Positions 5,863 to 20,193 of a stretch of 20,193 nucleotides of DNA are shown here, piece after piece. The position numbers were made by a program, and so were the translations under genes. Within the stretch, counting starts at the first letter, position 1. Each line of letters opens with the position of its first letter. Below the pieces are notes generated by a model that saw only the letters and a list, made by a program, of their open reading frames with translations, had not been told where the DNA came from and searched no databases. Source of the stretch: a virus; the UHGV virus genome UHGV-0040698, one strand, 5' to 3'.

Positions 5863-6804
5863 TCACCCCCTGAATCCTGCCGGGATTTGGCTGTAGTCCA
5901 CGTTGTCGTAACTGGCTTTGAAGTACGGGTCTTCGCGTTTTTCGGTGTACGTGCTGACGGACGGCGATAAGCGCAGGGAAAGCTCATCCCATTTTTCCCG
6001 CAGCTTCGACGGGCTGAGCACGTTACGGCACCAGAACGGATCGCGACTGACGCGGCTGTACATCTCGCAGATTTGTTTATGAGTACGACCATCCTGCACA
6101 CACATCAGGCGAATTTCGTTTGCCCAGGCTGTCCAGTTCGGTTCTTTGGGACGAACCACCTCGCCGTCACATTCGGCGGCCTGCTCGTACAGGGCGATGA
6201 TTTTTTTCCAGAGCCACTGTGCGCAGGTCAAATCATCCTGCGTTCCCCACTGGCGCTTTTTAGGGCTGAATACAACCGCATCAGGATGGCGAGTTAAAAA
6301 CTCCTGTTCAGCCGTCTGCGTGTCCGGTTGCGAAGCGTCCGGACGAGAAGTTTTTTTATCTGACGGATCATGTTTTGATTTTACTGACGGATCCCCGCCA
6401 GATTCTGACGGGTGAAAACCCGCTTTTTTGCCAGATTTCGACGCATCAAATTTTGACGGGTCAGATTTTGATGCGTCAGATTTTGACGGGTCAGAATCTG
6501 ACAGTTGAGAAAATGCCGCTGCCTGAAGCTTCGCAACGTTAAGCTGATAAACATTCGACGCATTGCGGTTACCCTGGCGACGCGCCTTACGCGTTAACCA
6601 GCCTTCTGCTTCCAGCCGTGCGATAGCCGTTCTGACGGTACTCATTCCCGCGCCAATCTGGCGGGCAATGGTTTCAATTGATGGCCAGCACACACCTTCG
6701 TCATTACTGAAATCAGCCAGGCGGGCCATAATTGCCACGCTGGATAATTTCATGCCTGATGCAGCGCAACCATCCCATACATAGCCGGTTAATTTAGTGC
6801 TCAT
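5863..6804 (-). CDS. Phage replication initiation protein (N-terminal winged-HTH, repeat-containing linker)
   Basis: N-terminus CWPSIETIARQIGAGMSTVRTAIARLEAEGWL is an HTH of replication-initiator type; the gene contains DNA iterons that encode the SDPSKSDASKSDPSKFDASKS repeat; GAGG SD. Confidence 0.7.
   Translation of the reverse strand: MSTKLTGYVWDGCAASGMKLSSVAIMARLADFSNDEGVCWPSIETIARQIGAGMSTVRTAIARLEAEGWLTRKARRQGNRNASNVYQLNVAKLQAAAFSQLSDSDPSKSDASKSDPSKFDASKSGKKAGFHPSESGGDPSVKSKHDPSDKKTSRPDASQPDTQTAEQEFLTRHPDAVVFSPKKRQWGTQDDLTCAQWLWKKIIALYEQAAECDGEVVRPKEPNWTAWANEIRLMCVQDGRTHKQICEMYSRVSRDPFWCRNVLSPSKLREKWDELSLRLSPSVSTYTEKREDPYFKASYDNVDYSQIPAGFRG
6355..6506. repeat. Iteron array inside the replication gene (candidate origin of replication)
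   Basis: About eight imperfect direct copies of a ~14-15 bp unit (ATTTTGACGGGTCAG, ATTTTGATGCGTCAG, GATTCTGACGGGTG ...) with TGACnnGTCA cores, analogous to ori-lambda inside gene O. Confidence 0.6.
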
Positions 6805-12353: not shown

Positions 12354-12703
12354 TGGAGCCATACAGCCTCACACTCGATGAGGCCTGTCATTTTCTCAAG
12401 ATATCCAGACCGACTGCCATTAACTGGATACGCACAGGGCGTCTTCAGGCAACACGCAAAGATCCCACTAAGAATAAATCTCCTTACCTCACAACACGAC
12501 AAGCCTGCATTGCGGCTCTTCAGTCTCCGCTGCATACTGTCCAGGTGAGTGCGGGTGATGGCATAACAGAGGAAAGAAAATGTCACTCTTCCGCAGAGGT
12601 GAAATATGGTACGCCAGTTTCACATTGCCGAACGGTAAAAGATTTAAACAGTCTCTTGGAACAAAGGACAAAAGGCAGGCGACAGAACTCCATGACAAGC
12701 TAA
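12353..12703 (+). CDS. Excisionase-like (AlpA/Xis-type HTH) protein
   Basis: [28 protein letters not shown] helix-turn-helix of excisionase type; TAATG coupling to the upstream gene; 3' end overlaps the integrase start by 124 nt, so the true C-terminus is uncertain. Confidence 0.5.
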
Positions 12704-13743
12704 AGGCTGAAGCATGGCGGGTCAGCAAACTTGGTGAAATACCTGATATAACGTTCGAGGAAGCGTGTGTCAGGTGGCTTGAAGAGAAAGCACATAAAAA
12801 ATCACTGGACGATGACAAAAGCCGGATCGGATTCTGGCTTCAACATTTCGCAGGAATGCAACTAAGAGACATTACTGAATCAAAAATTTATTCAGCAATG
12901 CAGAAAATGACGAACCGGCGTCATGAGGAAAACTGGAGACTCAGGGCAGAAGCATGCAGAAAAAAAGGGAAACCTGTTCCAGAATACACGCCAAAACCAG
13001 CGTCCGTTGCAACGAAGGCTACGCATCTTTCATTTATAAAGGCCCTACTAAGAGCCGCAGAGCGTGAATGGAAAATGCTGGATAAGGCACCAATTATTAA
13101 AGTGCCTCAACCAAAGAATAAACGGATCCGCTGGCTGGAGCCCCATGAAGCACAAAGGCTGATTGATGAATGTCCGGAGCCATTAAAGTCTGTTGTTGAA
13201 TTTGCACTGGCAACAGGCTTAAGACGCTCGAACATCATCAACCTTGAATGGCAACAAATAGACATGCAGCGCCGGGTGGCATGGATAAACCCGGAAGAGA
13301 GTAAATCAAACCGCGCAATTGGCGTTGCGCTGAATGATACTGCATGTCGCGTTTTGAAAAAACAAATCGGGAATCATCACCGTTGGGTATTTGTGTACAA
13401 GGAAAGCTGTACCAAACCAGACGGAACGAAAGCGCCAACAGTAAGGAAGATGCGGTATGACGCAAACACAGCCTGGAAAGCGGCGCTGAGACGGGCTGGT
13501 ATTGATGATTTCAGATTTCACGACTTGAGACACACCTGGGCAAGTTGGCTGGTTCAAGCCGGAGTCCCGTTGTCAGTGTTACAGGAAATGGGAGGCTGGG
13601 AGTCTATCGAAATGGTTCGTCGATATGCTCACCTTGCACCTAATCACCTTACCGAACACGCACGGCAAATAGACTCGATCCTGAACCCATCGGTCCCAAA
13701 TTTGTCCCAGTCAAAAAATAAGGAAAGTACTAATGATGTGTAA
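12580..13743 (+). CDS. Lambda-family tyrosine integrase (Rac IntR-like)
   Basis: N-terminal [14 protein letters not shown] arm-binding region; catalytic R (LATGLRRSN), HxxR ([10 protein letters not shown]) and Y (VRRYAHL); GAGGAA SD; transcribed toward the tRNA-derived att core. Confidence 0.9.
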
Positions 13744-13757
13744 CTTATTGATTTAAA

Positions 13758-13806
13758 TGGTGCCGATAATAGGAGTCGAACCTACGACCTTCGCATTACG
13801 AATGCG
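13758..13806 (-). other. Partial tRNA-Thr(CGU) (thrW) 3' end, 49 nt: attachment-site core
   Basis: Minus strand reads CGCATTCGTAATGCGAAGGTCGTAGGTTCGACTCCTATTATCGGCACCA = anticodon loop (CGT), T-arm and acceptor 3' strand of E. coli thrW; the 5' half of the tRNA is absent. Confidence 0.75.
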
Positions 13807-13894
13807 TAAATTGATCTTGTAAAATCAATACCTATCGAATTTAAATGGATTTTTTGCCACAATATTGCCACAGTTCGTTAGGAATCAGACAGAA

Positions 13895-14968
13895 ATGGCG
13901 ACTATACGCAAACGTGGTAACTACCAATGGGAAGCTCAAATCCGTAAACGAGGTTTTCCCTCTCAAACCAAAACCTTTAACACCAAAGTAGAAGCAGAAG
14001 CTTGGGCCAAAATGATCGAGTCAGAAATGGCGAGAGGAGTTTGGCTTAGCCGCAGCGAAGCGGAATCTACGACATTGTATGAAGCCCTAACGCGATATGA
14101 AAAAGAGATTGTTCCCGACAAAAAAGGGGCAGTGCAAGACCAATCATTGGTGCGGATACTAAAAGGCACTCAGCTGGCGAAAAACTATATGGCCAGCATC
14201 AGGAGTGCCGATGTCGCCAAGCTGAGAGATGAATGGTTGAAAATCTATGCCCCTGCAACCGTTTTAAGGCGTTTGGCCTTACTTTCTCATGTATTCAACG
14301 TTTCGCGGAAAGAATGGGGCATGGAGAGCCTGCTGAACCCCGTAGAGGCCATTCGCAAACCTCAACCCAAGAACTCCAGGACCAGACGCCTGGAAGCGCT
14401 GCCTGTAGTTTCTGAGAAAACCGGTGTTACGTCAGGAAAGGAAATAGCCAACGAGATCGAACATATCATCGCCGCAACACATTCATTAGTATTGCCAGCA
14501 ATCATTCTTCTGGCGTTAGAGACAGCCATGCGCCGTAGCGAAATCGCAGATCTTCGATGGCGCTTTATCGATCTTGATCGGCGAGTTGCACATCTGCCGG
14601 ATACTAAGAATGGTAATGCCCGCGATGTCCCTTTATCAACGAAAGCCATCACGATACTGTCCAGTCTCAAGGAACATTCTAAGCCAGCTGCTGATAAGGT
14701 TTTTGATATGCGTGCAGACGCGATTACCCGAGCTTTTGACCGAGCTGTAAAACGAGCCAGAGAACGATACGAGAAAACAAACTCATTATGTGATGAATCA
14801 TTCCTTAAAGATTTAAGATTTCATGACCTTCGACATGAAGCAACTTCTCGACTTGCTGAAATTTTCCCTATGCATGAACTGACCAAAATTACAGGACATA
14901 AAGATCCAAGAATGCTAATGCGGTATTATCATCCAAAAGCTGAAGATTTGGCGTTAAAGTTGAAATAA
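13895..14968 (+). CDS. Tyrosine recombinase / integrase of the second island
   Basis: Catalytic R (ETAMRRSE), HxxR (FHDLRHEATS) and Y (LMRYYH); ATG at 13895 (the track start 13865 is a TTG). Confidence 0.85.
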   Translation: MATIRKRGNYQWEAQIRKRGFPSQTKTFNTKVEAEAWAKMIESEMARGVWLSRSEAESTTLYEALTRYEKEIVPDKKGAVQDQSLVRILKGTQLAKNYMASIRSADVAKLRDEWLKIYAPATVLRRLALLSHVFNVSRKEWGMESLLNPVEAIRKPQPKNSRTRRLEALPVVSEKTGVTSGKEIANEIEHIIAATHSLVLPAIILLALETAMRRSEIADLRWRFIDLDRRVAHLPDTKNGNARDVPLSTKAITILSSLKEHSKPAADKVFDMRADAITRAFDRAVKRARERYEKTNSLCDESFLKDLRFHDLRHEATSRLAEIFPMHELTKITGHKDPRMLMRYYHPKAEDLALKLK

Positions 14969-16342: not shown

Positions 16343-17296
16343 TTATTTAGGGCGGGCTGATGTTAATGTCGCTAGCAAGGTTGGCATGAACCATTCTCTA
16401 ACAAGCTCCTCATACATATTTGAAAGATTTGTTAACTTATGCCAAACCACTTCGGAACAGTAACTCAAAAAATGTTCATAATGTTCAGGTTTTACCTCTT
16501 TATCAATATCTATTTGAAGTTGGATCAACTCCTTTTGGCTCGATACCATCGGCTTCCAAAATTCATGACCAGACCATATATCTTGTCTAAGAGCAATTAC
16601 AATAAAGTTATTTACCATCTCTATAGCTTCATCGAAAGAGACAGGAAATTGTACGGCCGCTTTACCTTGTAATCGGTTTATTTCTTTTAATTGATAGTTA
16701 AAAAGTGAGAATGCGCCATACATTTTTGATCTTTTACCATATGCACGTAATGGAACAAGCGCATCTTCATCATCCAGAATTTCATTTTCAAGAGGTATAT
16801 ATATAGTCTTTGAGTCTTTTTTAGAATAATTCGGGTCTTCTGGTATGAGAACTTTATCTATGTAATCATTAAGGCAAATAAAAAATGCCTTTTCTGTATT
16901 AGTGTCAACTAGTATCAATAATACTGGAATTGCAATACCTATAGACTGAACAGTCAAAATGTCTGATATATCTAACTTGAATTTTGCGACAGGGATTTCG
17001 ACAAAATCGCTTTTATCTTCTGTTAACTTTCCTTTGGTTACATTTCCACGAGCATAGGCTTTACGTGTACAATATTCAATACAATCTGAAGATTTTAGTT
17101 GTACAAAGAAGTTTTCACCAAGGGTTTCTGCAATACTTTCACTGTCATCAATAAAATCAAATAATTCAACAACGCAATCAATACCATAGTCAGCGCCATA
17201 GCTATGTACGACCCATTCGCGAGGTAGTTTTTCCCGCAGAACCCTGATTGAAATGTCTTCTTTTACCTGGCTAATAGACCGTCTTTTCTTTGGCAT
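16343..17296 (-). CDS. DUF4365-like (PD-(D/E)xK nuclease-like N-terminus) protein, 317 aa
   Basis: Strong GGAGG SD; N-terminal HSYGADYGIDCVVELFD...FFVQLKSS pattern resembling DUF4365; AT-rich. Confidence 0.65.
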   Translation of the reverse strand: MPKKRRSISQVKEDISIRVLREKLPREWVVHSYGADYGIDCVVELFDFIDDSESIAETLGENFFVQLKSSDCIEYCTRKAYARGNVTKGKLTEDKSDFVEIPVAKFKLDISDILTVQSIGIAIPVLLILVDTNTEKAFFICLNDYIDKVLIPEDPNYSKKDSKTIYIPLENEILDDEDALVPLRAYGKRSKMYGAFSLFNYQLKEINRLQGKAAVQFPVSFDEAIEMVNNFIVIALRQDIWSGHEFWKPMVSSQKELIQLQIDIDKEVKPEHYEHFLSYCSEVVWHKLTNLSNMYEELVREWFMPTLLATLTSARPK

Positions 17297-17472
17297 GTTA
17301 CCTCCTAAAATTACAAATTAAAAAACAGATCTTACACTCGAATGCTTAAAATGTCCGCTTCTGACACAGGGCTGCTGTTGCAGCCCTGACAACCTCGTAA
17401 CATTCCCCCCTTCATTATTAGTTTTAAATCTTGTCAATTTTCTTCTTTCAAGAATATGCTTGCATCAAGCAA

Positions 17473-18867
17473 TCACGGCTTTTCCTTGGCTTTGAGTTTA
17501 TCGGCGACATCTGGAACAATACTAAACTCGGTTACTGATGCAAGTACCTGGTTTTTCCATTGGGTCTCACAGATGATCTCTCCATTGTGTTCAAACCAAT
17601 GTGTTGCCCCCGGCAGGAAATCATGGGACATTGGATAAGCAGCATTAGGGTTATGAAATACTTCAAGTTCAAAACACCAAAATTCTTTGCCATCGCAAAG
17701 ATTAATATATTCAGGCGATTGAATATCTAGATCGAAGTCAATTGGTTCCAAGGCCCCTTCAGTCCTATCAAATAAAATCCCAACCCTGCGGGCTTTCACA
17801 ATAGGTGAGGAAAATTCAGCTTGGATTGCCATTCGCTGGAATTTTGGCAATGTTCCAGCATTACTAAACAAGATAGCAGATAAATTTTCAATCTCTGGGT
17901 GGTTAAATAGTCCTGCCGGAATATTTACATGGCCTAAAAGCTTTTCAATTGATAATGCAGCAGCCTTCATACCTTTGGATGTTTTGACTGTATGTGCGGT
18001 TTGCCCATACAAATAGGTTGGAAGTGACTCGCGAGACCAGACCATAGTGCCCCCACCGCTAAAATCCGCTATAGCGATTGCAAATGGAAATCCTTTAACA
18101 TGCGGTAGTTCTTCATACTTTCTCTGGAGTTTAGATCTGATGGTCTTAGCGAACCGTGCTGCCATATCACCTGCTGTGCGAGCTAATCGATCTCCGGGGG
18201 GGAATTGTGTTTGAGGCAACTTTAGGCTGCCCGGACCAGTTGGATTCGCGGTGACCGCCTCAACATATGCTTTGTTATTACCGTTCATGAGCATAAAATC
18301 CGGAGATGGATAATCTTGAAAAACTTTAATTCCCTGCTCTTTAAAACATGCGAAAAGGTATAGCTCCCAGATTCTAGAGTTGAATCCTTGGGTCTGGAGA
18401 TCGGTTCTGAAGTTATCATCAGGTTTTGGTAATGCCAGATAGAGCTCGACAATTAAATGAAATGCTCCTCGGTACTTTATCGTGGACGATAATTGTATAA
18501 ATGCCTGACAAACATTCCGCTCACCAACATGATCCAGTCGGGCTCTACGTGATTGCCCAGATGGAATCGGTAATAAATCTCCTCCGGCTGAAAGGTGCTT
18601 ATCAAGATGCACCAATGCCTCCTGCTCGGTAAAACACATCTCATGCTCGAGAGGTACCAGCACATAATCTTCCCGTCGCCTGAGCACAACAAGGCCATAT
18701 GAATTTTTGCTGTATTGAAGGACTGCACCATATCCAAGCCCTTTTTCATTTGACCAAGCGGAAAGTAATTCCGCATTACCATAATTAGGCCCATGTGGCA
18801 ATGACATTGCAAATATCTTAAATGCTTCAGTAGGCATTCTTTGTAGGCTATAGATCTTATTAGACAT
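17473..18867 (-). CDS. Hypothetical protein (464 aa), second gene of a two-gene operon
   Basis: GGAGAG SD 8 nt before ATG 18867 (the track's ATG 18873 is only 2 nt from the SD); 22 nt after the upstream gene; no named motif. Confidence 0.65.
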   Translation of the reverse strand: MSNKIYSLQRMPTEAFKIFAMSLPHGPNYGNAELLSAWSNEKGLGYGAVLQYSKNSYGLVVLRRREDYVLVPLEHEMCFTEQEALVHLDKHLSAGGDLLPIPSGQSRRARLDHVGERNVCQAFIQLSSTIKYRGAFHLIVELYLALPKPDDNFRTDLQTQGFNSRIWELYLFACFKEQGIKVFQDYPSPDFMLMNGNNKAYVEAVTANPTGPGSLKLPQTQFPPGDRLARTAGDMAARFAKTIRSKLQRKYEELPHVKGFPFAIAIADFSGGGTMVWSRESLPTYLYGQTAHTVKTSKGMKAAALSIEKLLGHVNIPAGLFNHPEIENLSAILFSNAGTLPKFQRMAIQAEFSSPIVKARRVGILFDRTEGALEPIDFDLDIQSPEYINLCDGKEFWCFELEVFHNPNAAYPMSHDFLPGATHWFEHNGEIICETQWKNQVLASVTEFSIVPDVADKLKAKEKP

Positions 18868-18889
18868 TTTCATCTCTCCATAGATAATC

Positions 18890-19942
18890 CTAAAATTCAG
18901 TTAAATTGAAGCTTCCTTGATTTAGATGACATATTTCTGGGACGACCGATTCTGATATACCTTCACTTTCATGAATCCCTAGTGTTACTACTGTACTAAG
19001 CTCAGGAAACAATCTTCTCTTTGTTTTTGGTTTAATTTTTATATGTGAGATCATCTCCAAAAATCTGGAGGTTGTATAAATTGTGTCATAATGAGCAGAT
19101 CCTTCGCCATCGTCATACCATGAGCCTGTATCCACTACTACAGTGTTAAGTAATGGTGCTATTAAATTGAAATTATCAGTGCGAATAGAGACTGCAAACT
19201 TGAAGGGATAAGAATCTTGCTGTGCAAAGTAATCCTCACCACGCCCGTATTGCCTAGTAATTTCAACTATTCCGCGCACCAAAAGATAAATATAATTTTC
19301 GTCAAGGTTCAGCAACTCAATGGATTCAACATTGCACCAATCAACAGTTGTTTGTGAAGATAATATATCCAGTTCGTCAGGGATATTATTCATTGTGATG
19401 TCAGTAACTTCATTCTGTACTTCCTCGATTATTGATTCGGTAATAACACGCTCAAGTTCATCGAAGGTATCGAATATTATGTTACACAGTTCTATTATTA
19501 GTTTAGCACTCTCAAAAAACTGTTTGGGGTTACTATCAAATGAATGTTCGCTAATATGGGTGTAATCGTTTAAAGAAGAATAGTTTTTATTGAACCATGC
19601 TATACCATCATCTAGTCTTTCGATAGCTACATCATCAAGAAGTTGATCGGGTATATGCTTCTGGGCGATGTATTTTGCTTGCTGTTTACGGGTAACAGTG
19701 GCGTTATTTTTGTTTTTAGTGAACCATGGAGACGCCATAACTCTGTCATTTGGTGCCAGTCGTTTCAGCACATGATTTATTAGCTCACGTATTGCAAATG
19801 CAAAGTTGTTGAAGCGCAGAGGATTACCATGAGAACAATAGTTGCGAAGACTGGCATGTAAGAGTTCATGCTCAAAGTCAGTTTCTAGGTGCTCTTGAAA
19901 CTCCTTGATGAAATCCATTTCAAGCATTTTTTTTAGTTTCAT
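18890..19942 (-). CDS. Hypothetical protein with HEPN-like R-x4-H motif (350 aa)
   Basis: ATG at 19942; N-terminal FAFAIRELINHVL contains R-x4-H; AT-rich; first gene of the operon. Confidence 0.6.
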   Translation of the reverse strand: MKLKKMLEMDFIKEFQEHLETDFEHELLHASLRNYCSHGNPLRFNNFAFAIRELINHVLKRLAPNDRVMASPWFTKNKNNATVTRKQQAKYIAQKHIPDQLLDDVAIERLDDGIAWFNKNYSSLNDYTHISEHSFDSNPKQFFESAKLIIELCNIIFDTFDELERVITESIIEEVQNEVTDITMNNIPDELDILSSQTTVDWCNVESIELLNLDENYIYLLVRGIVEITRQYGRGEDYFAQQDSYPFKFAVSIRTDNFNLIAPLLNTVVVDTGSWYDDGEGSAHYDTIYTTSRFLEMISHIKIKPKTKRRLFPELSTVVTLGIHESEGISESVVPEICHLNQGSFNLTEF

Positions 19943-20059
19943 ATAAGTGCCTAATTATCAATTGATTGTGGGCTAAATAGCCTGCTTTTATGTTACAGAA
20001 CATACTGGTTCATTGGATAGTTGAAGCTGGATAAAAATGCACGGTTACTTAGATTAAGT

Positions 20060-20090
20060 AATCAAGAATCAAGAATCAAGAATCAAGAAT
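20060..20090. repeat. Heptanucleotide tandem repeat (AATCAAG)x4 plus partial copy
   Basis: Four perfect AATCAAG units and a partial AAT, about 120-150 bp upstream of the start codon at 19942. Confidence 0.8.
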
Positions 20091-20193
20091 GTCGGACTTT
20101 AAAAGTAATAGTTTCCCATATCTGTATCCAGTCACTGTGACCTGCCCCCACGATTAGATACAACACTCAGTTAGTAACGTCGGAATCTTCATT

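What the first reader, a model, noticed from the sequence alone, without database searches (positions are those of the whole stretch)
20054..20092. Heptanucleotide tandem repeat upstream of the HEPN-like operon
(AATCAAG)x4 with degenerate flanking units sits about 120-150 bp upstream of the start at 19942. Short tandem repeats are uncommon in enterobacterial intergenic DNA; unit-number changes by slipped-strand mispairing shift promoter geometry in 7-bp steps, or the units may be regulator binding sites.
Basis: seen in the sequence. Interest (0 to 1): 0.45.

Follow-up and report, generated by a model that had tools for sequence, protein, structure and literature searches.

The report
Hypervariable 7-bp repeat before defence operon
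A perfect 7-base tandem repeat in front of a mobile pair of anti-phage genes in E. coli varies from 3 to 7 copies between otherwise identical strains, so it is a real mutational hot spot that may tune expression of the defence genes, although that effect is untested.

Summary
The repeat is real: (AATCAAG)x4.4, 100% perfect, at window 20060-20090. On the gene's sense strand it reads (CTTGATT)n and lies 118 bp upstream of the ATG at 19942.

It is strongly polymorphic. Thirty records carrying the near-identical cassette have 3, 4, 5, 6 or 7 units (9/9/6/5/1). Six loci with zero SNPs over 2,587 flanking bases carry five different copy numbers. At least 9 copy-number changes compare with 8 SNPs in that stretch. 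Sister lineages have 2 units (Rts1, Moellerella plasmids) or 1 unit (Rahnella plasmid, one metagenome contig).

The tract splits the most conserved non-coding block of the leader. Downstream lie a pP_pnuc (RNxxxH, HEPN-like) gene and a PD-T7-1-like gene.

No convincing sigma-70 promoter, Rfam family or RNA structure could be located, so an effect on expression is inferred, not shown. The best weak promoter candidate takes its -35 (TTGATT) from the repeat and keeps a 17-bp spacer at any n>=3.

In this window an ISSen4 element is inserted 47 bp beyond the repeat.

Verdict: a genuine slippage-prone VNTR in a defence-cassette leader, a new member of a known kind. Function is plausible but unproven.

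The parts
20060..20090 (-). Heptanucleotide VNTR. It reads (AATCAAG)x4 plus AAT on the + strand and (CTTGATT)n on the sense strand of the operon. There are 4 units in this window.
   Evidence: TRF; sequence; 3-7 units in 30 near-identical cassettes.
20053..20059 (-). Degenerate proximal unit GATTAAG (5 of 7 matches, one base out of register).
   Evidence: Sequence; direct-repeat family D5.
20091..20124 (-). Distal invariant block. Sense strand: CAGATATGGGAAACTATTACTTTTAAAGTCCGAC. It is 100% identical in E. coli, Moellerella, Rahnella and two environmental contigs. It contains the 11-bp palindrome ACTTT-T-AAAGT, a 6-codon mini-ORF (ATGGGAAACTATTACTTTTAA) and the -35-like CCGACA.
   Evidence: Five-lineage leader alignment: about 43 contiguous invariant columns abutting the repeat.
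20031..20059 (-). Proximal conserved block. Sense strand: ACTTAATCTAAGTAACCGTGCATTTTTAT. It includes the -10-like TAATCT (+ strand AGATTA, 20051-20056), which starts 3 bp after the last unit.
   Evidence: Alignment; PWM scan.
19968..19985 (+). Conserved small hairpin (GGGCT-loop-AGCC core) in the leader, 26-43 bp upstream of the ATG. The loop varies and the stem is kept in the relatives. The scan scores it terminator-like on the + strand only.
   Evidence: Terminator scan; alignment.
18890..19942 (-). Gene 1, 350 aa: pP_pnuc_1 plus pP_pnuc_2 (predicted pPIWI-associating nuclease; PADLOC Aga_Nuclease). It has an invariant RNxxxH HEPN-type motif at residues 33-38.
17473..18873 (-). Gene 2, 466 aa (annotated as 464 aa elsewhere): PD-T7-1-like defence protein with no Pfam domain. 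It is always paired with gene 1 in E. coli, Rts1, Moellerella and Rahnella victoriana.
   Evidence: PADLOC PD-T7-1 E=3.8e-83; synteny.
16343..17296 (-). Gene 3, 317 aa, DUF4365. It accompanies the pair in both E. coli-type contexts but not on the Rts1, Moellerella or Rahnella plasmids.
17350..17372 (+). 3' copy of a 23-nt direct repeat (AATGTCCGCTTCTGACACAGGGC) that brackets the two-gene cassette. The 5' copy lies about 100 bp beyond the VNTR in uninterrupted loci. It is missing from this window because of the IS insertion.
   Evidence: Cross-genus homology ends at both copies.
20138..20193 (-). Right end of an ISSen4-family IS3 element, starting TGACCTGCCCCC and inserted 47 bp distal to the VNTR. 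The transposase reads towards the operon, with its stop codon at 20167-20169.
   Evidence: the native sequence continues CATTGTGC... in 8 E. coli genomes.

Best explanation
The repeat is a slippage-prone heptanucleotide VNTR that arose inside the regulatory leader of a mobile two-gene anti-phage cassette (HEPN-like pP_pnuc gene plus PD-T7-1-like gene).

Shown: the tract gains and loses whole 7-bp units far faster than the flanks acquire point mutations. It sits in the middle of the only strongly conserved non-coding block of the leader.

Inferred: replication slippage produces 7-nt loops, which E. coli mismatch repair does not correct (own knowledge). Each step moves the 34-bp invariant distal block 7 bp, about 240 degrees of helix, away from the proximal block, the -10-like TAATCT and the gene.

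The unit itself contains a -35-like TTGATT. A TTGATT-17 bp-TAATCT arrangement therefore exists at every n>=3. It replaces the ancestral CCGACA-17 bp-TAATCT seen in the one-unit lineage. The core promoter would then survive expansion, and copy number would tune transcription in a graded or periodic way rather than switching it fully on and off. This resembles the H. influenzae hmw and N. meningitidis nadA promoter repeats. The result would be cell-to-cell and strain-to-strain differences in how strongly a probably costly defence system is expressed.
For: The tract is perfect and unlikely by chance.

Copy numbers are 3, 4, 5, 6 and 7 in 30 records of the near-identical cassette, in two different genomic contexts.

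Six loci identical over 2,587 bp carry n=3, 4, 4, 5, 6 and 7. At least 9 copy-number changes compare with 8 variable sites in that stretch. Pairs of loci that differ by 2-3 SNPs over 4-5.8 kb differ by exactly one unit.

The evolutionary series is 1 unit (Rahnella victoriana plasmid, metagenome L058), then 2 units (Rts1, Moellerella), then 3-7 units (E. coli type).

The flanks of the tract are the most conserved part of the leader. About 43 contiguous columns are invariant, while the middle of the leader diverges.

The top-scoring sigma-70 candidate is TTGATT-17-TAATCT at every n>=3. In the one-unit Rahnella leader, CCGACA-17-TAATCT is among the top three candidates.

IS elements have repeatedly landed in or next to this leader or in the genes: ISSen4 here, IS5 9 bp from the repeat in Rts1, an IS inside gene 1 in L073, and a split gene 2 in L071. 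This is consistent with expression of the cassette being under selection.

Known precedents show that 7-bp or 4-bp promoter repeats modulate transcription (PMC2651432; PMC2791445).
Against: No promoter is actually demonstrated. The tool scan finds none at 9 of 12 matches or better. My PWM's best candidate scores 6.87, below the median best score of shuffled sequence, 7.79.

If the -35 really lies in the unit, spacing is buffered and the effect of copy number could be small.

All values from 3 to 7 occur with no obvious preferred phase.

The SSR is absent upstream of 29 distant homologues and of the Klebsiella and P1-like plasmid homologues. One related lineage has replaced the whole block. The repeat is therefore not a conserved regulatory device of the family.

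All E. coli-type cassettes are nearly identical, so conservation of the flanks within them says nothing about ongoing selection.

No expression or within-culture data exist.
Confidence: 0.45

Rival explanations
1. Functionally neutral VNTR. The tract is a by-product of replication slippage on a proto-repeat in AT-rich acquired DNA. It varies because 7-bp loops escape repair, like the MLVA typing loci of E. coli O157, and has no meaningful effect on the operon.
For: Whole-unit changes on identical haplotypes are exactly what known E. coli VNTRs with 6-7-bp units do. Those mutate at 4e-5 to 2e-3 per generation (PMC3777172). No promoter, RNA motif or structure is detectable. All copy numbers from 3 to 7 are tolerated. 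The repeat is lineage-specific.
Against: The tract interrupts the most conserved non-coding block of the leader. In one-unit lineages the two halves of that block abut. Inserting 14-42 bp between two conserved elements would be expected to matter if they act together.
Confidence: 0.4
2. Operator array. The heptads are contiguous binding sites for a small dimeric regulator, in the manner of ribbon-helix-helix proteins that bind 7-bp heptad arrays, and the number of units sets repression strength.
For: A 7-bp periodic direct-repeat array upstream of an operon. The unit AATCAAG matches 5 of 7 positions of the omega-type heptad WATCACW (consensus recalled from memory). The half-site TTGAT recurs in a palindrome ATCAATTGAT near the ribosome-binding site in E. 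coli.
Against: No regulator gene travels with the cassette, and the neighbours differ in every context. The 70-aa neighbour has no Pfam hit. No second array exists in the window or in the fetched loci. Sister lineages have only 1-2 units. The downstream palindrome is not conserved in Moellerella or Rahnella victoriana. The extreme instability on identical haplotypes is atypical for a selected operator.
Confidence: 0.07
3. Transcribed leader repeat. The promoter lies in the distal invariant block, so (CUUGAUU)n is part of the 5' UTR and alters mRNA stability or translation. One reading of the hmw system works this way.
For: The distal block is invariant and holds weak promoter-like hexamers, TGGATA-17-TACTTT. 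The repeat lies about 100 bp upstream of the gene, as at hmw1A/2A.
Against: That candidate scores lower than the repeat-borne one, and its -35 is not conserved in Rahnella. The leader folds no better than shuffles (z=+1.15). There is no complementarity to the ribosome-binding site beyond a 6-nt AU-rich match.
Confidence: 0.08

Closest known systems
Haemophilus influenzae hmw1A/hmw2A promoter heptanucleotide SSR (Dawid et al. 1999, as summarised in PMC2651432)
   Same: A 7-bp unit in perfect tandem, about 100 bp upstream of the start codon. Copy number differs between strains. At hmw, changes in copy number modulate expression rather than shifting a reading frame.
   Different: The hmw tracts are much longer (13-38 units against 3-7 here). 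The host is a classical contingency-locus organism, the target is an adhesin rather than a defence system, and the effect on expression is experimentally shown there but not here.
Neisseria meningitidis nadA TAAA tract (PMC2791445)
   Same: The repeat lies upstream of the core promoter and is flanked on both sides by conserved regulatory elements. At nadA, copy number changes the spacing of distal promoter elements and gives graded, periodic expression.
   Different: The nadA unit is a tetranucleotide. The flanking operators (NadR) and the IHF site are defined there. Here the flanking blocks are conserved but their ligands are unknown.
E. coli K1 neuO heptanucleotide (poly-psi) switch on prophage CUS-3 (cited in PMC9659370)
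   Same: A heptanucleotide repeat in E. coli, carried on a mobile element, that varies by slipped-strand mispairing and is linked to phage resistance.
   Different: The neuO repeat lies inside the ORF and acts through the translational frame. The repeat here is intergenic, and no sense-strand ORF crosses it.
E. coli O157:H7 MLVA/VNTR loci with 6-7-bp units, such as Vhec7 and O157-10 (PMC3777172)
   Same: Same species, same unit size and the same behaviour: whole-unit gains and losses at rates orders of magnitude above point mutation.
   Different: Those loci are used only as typing markers and have no assigned function. This one sits inside the conserved leader of a mobile defence cassette and travels with it.
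Heptad operator arrays of ribbon-helix-helix repressors (omega of pSM19035; recalled from memory)
   Same: Contiguous 7-bp direct repeats upstream of promoters; the unit resembles WATCACW at 5 of 7 positions.
   Different: There is no cognate regulator and no other arrays. The array is unstable and is dispensable in sister lineages.

Membership tests
Promoter-type SSR contingency locus (hmw / nadA kind) | Perfect tandem tract of short units | tested here: met
   Period 7, 4.4 copies, 100% matches. The tract is perfect in all 30 alleles.
Promoter-type SSR contingency locus (hmw / nadA kind) | Tract length hypervariable relative to flanking sequence among close relatives | tested here: met
   n=3-7 on near-identical cassettes. 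Six loci with 0 SNPs in 2,587 bp carry five different lengths. At least 9 length changes compare with 8 SNPs.
Promoter-type SSR contingency locus (hmw / nadA kind) | Tract lies within or next to the promoter, so that its length alters transcription | tested here: inconclusive
   The tract lies 118 bp upstream of the ATG, in the centre of the most conserved leader block. No promoter scores above the shuffled background.
Promoter-type SSR contingency locus (hmw / nadA kind) | High-frequency, reversible length change within a clonal culture, with a matching change in expression or phenotype | not testable with these tools
   This needs amplicon sequencing of cultures and reporter or phage assays.
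Translational (in-ORF) SSR switch (neuO kind) | Repeat lies inside the coding sequence, so that units not divisible by three shift the frame | tested here: not met
   No sense-strand ORF crosses the tract. The only ORF over it is a 39-aa TTG-started frame on the opposite strand. The sense-strand mini-ORF ends before the repeat.
E. coli VNTR (MLVA-type locus) | Tandem array of 6-7-bp units that changes by whole units between isolates | tested here: met
   All differences are exact multiples of 7 bp. Known loci behave the same way (PMC3777172).
RHH heptad operator array | Cognate small regulator encoded with the array | tested here: not met
   The cassette holds only two genes. The neighbours differ in every context. 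The 70-aa neighbour has no Pfam hit.
RHH heptad operator array | Further heptad arrays at other promoters of the same element | tested here: not met
   The only other hit in the window is a single 2-mismatch match inside gene 1. The loci hold only the one array.
   R33-N-Y-C-S-H38 is invariant in homologues down to 34% identity. The fold itself was not tested.
pPIWI / short Argonaute system (suggested by the Pfam name of gene 1) | A PIWI-domain partner encoded next to the pP_pnuc gene | tested here: not met
   Gene 2 has no Pfam or NCBIfam hit and instead matches PADLOC PD-T7-1. It has no PDB relative by sequence. Its fold was not predicted.

The most novel reading that the evidence does not exclude
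This is a bona fide contingency locus in E. coli. A portable 'sliding promoter' has its -35 hexamer embedded in a hypermutable heptamer. It generates heritable but rapidly reversible heterogeneity in expression of a HEPN-like/PD-T7-1-like anti-phage cassette, and it moves with that cassette between plasmids, islands and species. Lineages would thereby hedge between the cost of immunity and protection from phage.
Probability: 0.25. Interest if true: 0.65.

Novelty: new member of a known kind. Interest (0 to 1): 0.45.

Why it matters
E. coli is usually regarded as poor in repeat-driven contingency loci. Regulation of most newly found anti-phage systems is unknown, although many are costly or toxic. 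A hypermutable repeat built into the leader of a mobile defence cassette gives a simple, directly testable route to population heterogeneity in immunity. Even if it proves neutral, it is a highly discriminating marker for tracking this island among strains that are otherwise identical. The locus also shows how a repeat can expand inside a promoter region while possibly preserving a -35/-10 arrangement.

Tried and rejected
- Rfam at gathering thresholds gave no hit in the window. ARAGORN found no tRNA.
- Folding the 208-nt leader as RNA showed no more structure than shuffles, z=+1.15.
- The sigma-70 scan found 0 sites. My PWM scan on both strands, on all alleles n=1-7, on the orthologous leaders and on the IS junction gave nothing above the shuffled background. 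By eye I also checked LexA, CRP, IHF (only the WATCAA half is present in each unit), sigma-54, sigma-32, sigma-E, T7 and T4 MotA consensus sequences, all recalled from memory. None fitted, and these were not formal tests.
- An exact search for the distal flank in the GTDB species representatives found nothing. A distant search of the leader against phage genomes found no match.
- Upstream regions of 29 distant homologues and of the Klebsiella and P1-like plasmid homologues hold no perfect array of at least 3 units. Convergent SSRs in the family are therefore rejected.
- No other heptad arrays occur elsewhere.
- The A8 tract just after the start codon is invariant in 28 loci, so it is not a second switch.
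- PDB sequence searches with genes 1 and 2 gave only chance-level hits.
- Full-text search for the repeat sequence in the literature found no paper.
- Look-ups of CP152494.1 and CP029212.1 in the annotated collections failed. The host of the second genomic context remains unidentified; it is absent from 5,426 complete E. coli genomes.
- Assembly artefact was rejected. The differences are exact multiples of 7 in many independent complete genomes, and the tracts (21-49 bp) are shorter than a sequencing read.

Full report
**1. The observation**

Tandem Repeats Finder reports one array at window 20060-20090: period 7, 4.4 copies, 100% matches, no indels, consensus AATCAAG. The sequence reads gattaagt-(AATCAAG)4-AATgtcgg. 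GATTAAG at 20053-20059 matches 5 of 7 positions. AATGTCG at 20088-20094 matches 4 of 7.

The downstream gene lies on the minus strand. In its sense orientation the tract is therefore (CTTGATT)n and ends 118 bp before the ATG at 19942.

It is the only perfect repeat of at least 3 copies with a 4-9-nt unit in the window. Only 3 of 1000 Markov-simulated windows held any perfect repeat of at least 4 copies with such a unit. A two-unit pattern gives 4 matches against 0.27 expected.

**2. Surroundings**

Three genes lie downstream on the minus strand.
- Gene 1 (18890-19942, 350 aa) carries Pfam pP_pnuc_1 and pP_pnuc_2 and matches PADLOC Aga_Nuclease. It has an invariant RNxxxH motif at residues 33-38, so 'HEPN-like' is fair.
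- Gene 2 (17473-18873, 466 aa) has no Pfam or NCBIfam hit. It matches PADLOC PD-T7-1 at E=3.8e-83. PD-T7-1 is an E. coli system validated against T-even and T7 phages (PMC9519451).
- Gene 3 (16343-17296) is a DUF4365 protein.

These genes belong to a small integrative island. Its integrase is at 13865-14968. The island sits next to the integrase of a CPS-53-like lambdoid prophage that fills the left part of the window.

The last 56 bases of the window (20138-20193) are the right end of an ISSen4-family IS3 element. Its transposase reads towards the operon. In eight E. coli genomes the native sequence continues past this point. The IS sits 47 bp distal to the repeat and leaves the conserved leader intact.

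**3. Copy number in relatives**

The same 438 query bases span 438, 445 or 452 bases in eight complete E. coli genomes. The alignment shows the only difference is 4, 5 or 6 units.

Contigs encoding the identical gene-1 or gene-3 protein were fetched, together with metagenome and IMG/VR contigs holding the distal flank. With the window itself this gives 30 distinct records of the near-identical cassette. Their copy numbers are:

| n | records |
|---|---|
| 3 | 9 |
| 4 | 9 |
| 5 | 6 |
| 6 | 5 |
| 7 | 1 |

. For four of the E. coli genomes the number is inferred from match length only.

The cassette occurs in two genomic contexts, and both are polymorphic. One is downstream of trbL in the E. coli island. 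The other is next to LysR and MFS genes in an unidentified host that is absent from 5,426 complete E. coli genomes.

Over 2,587 flanking bases, 19 loci show only 8 variable sites. The haplotype identical to the window carries n=3, 4, 4, 5, 6 and 7. Counting the other haplotypes, at least 9 length changes are needed. Pairs of loci that differ by 2-3 SNPs in 4-5.8 kb differ by exactly one unit.

This one locus has therefore changed about as often as all the flanking positions together, which is the behaviour expected of slipped-strand mispairing. It matches known E. coli VNTRs with 6-7-bp units, which mutate at 4e-5 to 2e-3 per generation (PMC3777172). It is established knowledge, not tested here, that E. 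coli mismatch repair does not act on loops longer than about 4 nt.

**4. Origin of the tract**

More distant copies of the cassette show how it arose.
- Plasmid Rts1 of Proteus vulgaris and two Moellerella plasmids (93% DNA identity for Moellerella) have 2 units.
- A Rahnella victoriana plasmid (88%) and a metagenome contig (94% protein identity) have a single unit, in the form CTTGATT-AGATTG-CTTAATC.
- In Rahnella sp. CG8 (83% protein identity) homology stops about 75 bp upstream of the ATG. The whole block is replaced and an XRE-type gene lies upstream.
- Twenty-nine homologues at 36-52% identity, and the single-gene homologues on Klebsiella and P1-like plasmids, have no upstream array of at least 3 units.

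The repeat is therefore a recent, lineage-specific expansion (1, then 2, then 3-7 units). It is not an ancestral regulatory device of the family.

**5. Where the tract sits in the leader**

Five lineages were aligned from the cassette boundary to the ATG. The sequence immediately distal to the repeat, CAGATATGGGAAACTATTACTTTTAAAGTCCGACATTCTTGAT, is invariant for about 43 columns. The proximal 30 bp, ending in CGTGCATTTTTAT, are nearly invariant. The middle of the leader is the least conserved part.

The repeat thus splits the best-conserved non-coding element of the cassette. In the one-unit lineages the two halves abut.

The cassette is bracketed by a 23-nt direct repeat (20 of 23 identical). 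Cross-genus homology ends at both copies.

**6. Search for a mechanism**

No Rfam family reaches threshold. The leader RNA is no more structured than shuffles. The consensus scan finds no sigma-70 promoter.

A position-weight scan of my own gives TTGATT-17 bp-TAATCT as the best candidate at every n>=3. The -35 comes from the third-last unit, and the -10 starts 3 bp after the tract. In the one-unit Rahnella leader, CCGACA-17-TAATCT is among the top three candidates. In the two-unit leader, CCGACA-17-CTTAAT is the best.

These scores (5.6-6.9) lie below the median best score of shuffled sequence (7.8). The assignment is a hypothesis, not a finding. If it is right, expansion replaced the ancestral -35 with one supplied by the unit. 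The -35/-10 spacing would then be buffered against copy number. What changes is the distance, in steps of 7 bp or about 240 degrees, between the invariant distal block and the core promoter.

**7. Most likely working**

I commit to the following, with confidence 0.45 for the functional part. The tract is a hypermutable VNTR in the promoter-leader of the defence cassette (shown). Its length tunes transcription in a graded or periodic manner by re-spacing conserved upstream elements (inferred).

The main rival, at 0.40, is that the tract is a neutral VNTR.

An operator-array reading (0.07) is weakened by three things: no cognate regulator, no other arrays, and one-unit sister lineages.

A 5'-UTR reading (0.08) is weakened by the poor, non-conserved distal promoter candidate and the unstructured leader.

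Repeated disruption is consistent with expression of the cassette being under selection, but does not prove it. The disruptions seen are ISSen4 here, IS5 9 bp from the tract in Rts1, an IS inside gene 1 in L073, and a split gene 2 in L071.

**8. Comparison with what is known**

- The closest analogues in mechanism are the 7-bp SSRs about 100 bp upstream of H. influenzae hmw1A/hmw2A (PMC2651432).
- The TAAA tract of N. meningitidis nadA is flanked by operators and acts through differential spacing of distal promoter elements (PMC2791445).
- In E. coli the known heptanucleotide switch is neuO of prophage CUS-3, but that repeat is inside the ORF (PMC9659370). The in-ORF criterion is not met here.
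- As a sequence object, the tract meets the criteria of an E. coli VNTR.
- No paper in the held library contains the repeat sequence.

**9. Verdict**

The promoter-geometry consequence remains untested and may be buffered. The binding-site alternative has no support.

This is a new member of a known kind: a promoter-region VNTR or candidate contingency locus. It is of moderate interest because such loci are rare in E. coli and because it sits in front of a mobile anti-phage cassette.

Noticed in passing
window 20138-20193; also L022 and L023: ISSen4-family IS3 end inserted 47 bp from the repeat, with the transposase reading towards the operon. Three independent insertions (this window and two unrelated E. 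coli sites) are all preceded by C[CT]AG-N-C-N-CTG. This suggests a target preference, or targeting of sequences that resemble the IS end.
   Followed up: partly
window 17350-17372; L001 3651-3673 and 6463-6485: A 23-nt direct repeat (20 of 23 identical) brackets the two-gene cassette. The 5' copy forms the hairpin GTCCGCT-N10-AGCGGAC. Homology between E. coli, Moellerella and Rahnella ends at these points, and three different upstream contexts join there. It may be a recombination site for cassette exchange.
   Followed up: partly
L016 (Rts1), L073, L071, L003: The system is repeatedly disrupted. IS5 is inserted at CTAA|G, 9 bp gene-proximal of the repeat, in Rts1. An IS3-family element truncates gene 1 in L073. 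Gene 2 is split in L071. The DUF4365 gene is shorter in strain 2017.06.05CC. This hints at a fitness cost, or at IS-mediated activation or silencing.
   Followed up: partly
window 13744-13864: The 3' part of a tRNA gene (an att remnant) lies between the CPS-53-like prophage integrase (12580-13743) and the island integrase (13865-14968). Two integrative elements are therefore stacked at one tRNA site. ARAGORN finds no intact tRNA in the window.
   Followed up: partly
window 6432-6495: A 15-bp unit repeated 4.3 times (also scored as 30 bp x 2.1; consensus CAGATTTTGACGGGT) lies inside the ORF 5863-6804 (-), which has a winged-helix HTH_36 domain. It looks like iterons of a lambdoid replication origin inside the initiator gene.
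   Followed up: no
window 19927-19934 (minus strand: ATGAAACT-A8-TGC): An A8 homopolymer lies at codons 4-6 of gene 1 and is followed directly by an in-frame ATG. It is invariant in all 28 loci examined, so there is no sign that it is a second slippage switch.
   Followed up: yes
window 20091-20124 (sense strand): The invariant distal block contains an 11-bp palindrome ACTTT-T-AAAGT and a 6-codon mini-ORF ATGGGAAACTATTACTTTTAA (MGNYYF). Neither has an assigned role.
   Followed up: no
window 19955-19966; L059/L060 near position 1180: A perfect 10-bp palindrome ATCAATTGAT lies 13-24 bp upstream of the ATG, and its half-site equals the core of the repeat unit. In Rahnella sp. CG8 it is a 14-bp perfect palindrome GTATCAATTGATAC next to an XRE-family gene. 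It is imperfect in Moellerella and Rahnella victoriana.
   Followed up: partly
L018, L068-L071, L076 (context B): The same three-gene block, at 99.9% identity, sits without the island integrase next to LysR and MFS genes in 5.4-5.6-Mb genomes that are not among 5,426 complete E. coli genomes. This implies recent transfer between species. The host was not identified.
   Followed up: partly
window 18890-18873 region; genes 1 and 2: A gene named 'pPIWI-associating nuclease' is paired here with a PD-T7-1-like protein rather than with any recognisable PIWI/Argonaute protein. The pair is conserved in four genera. This suggests PD-T7-1-like proteins can work as two-gene systems with a HEPN-like partner.
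   Followed up: partly
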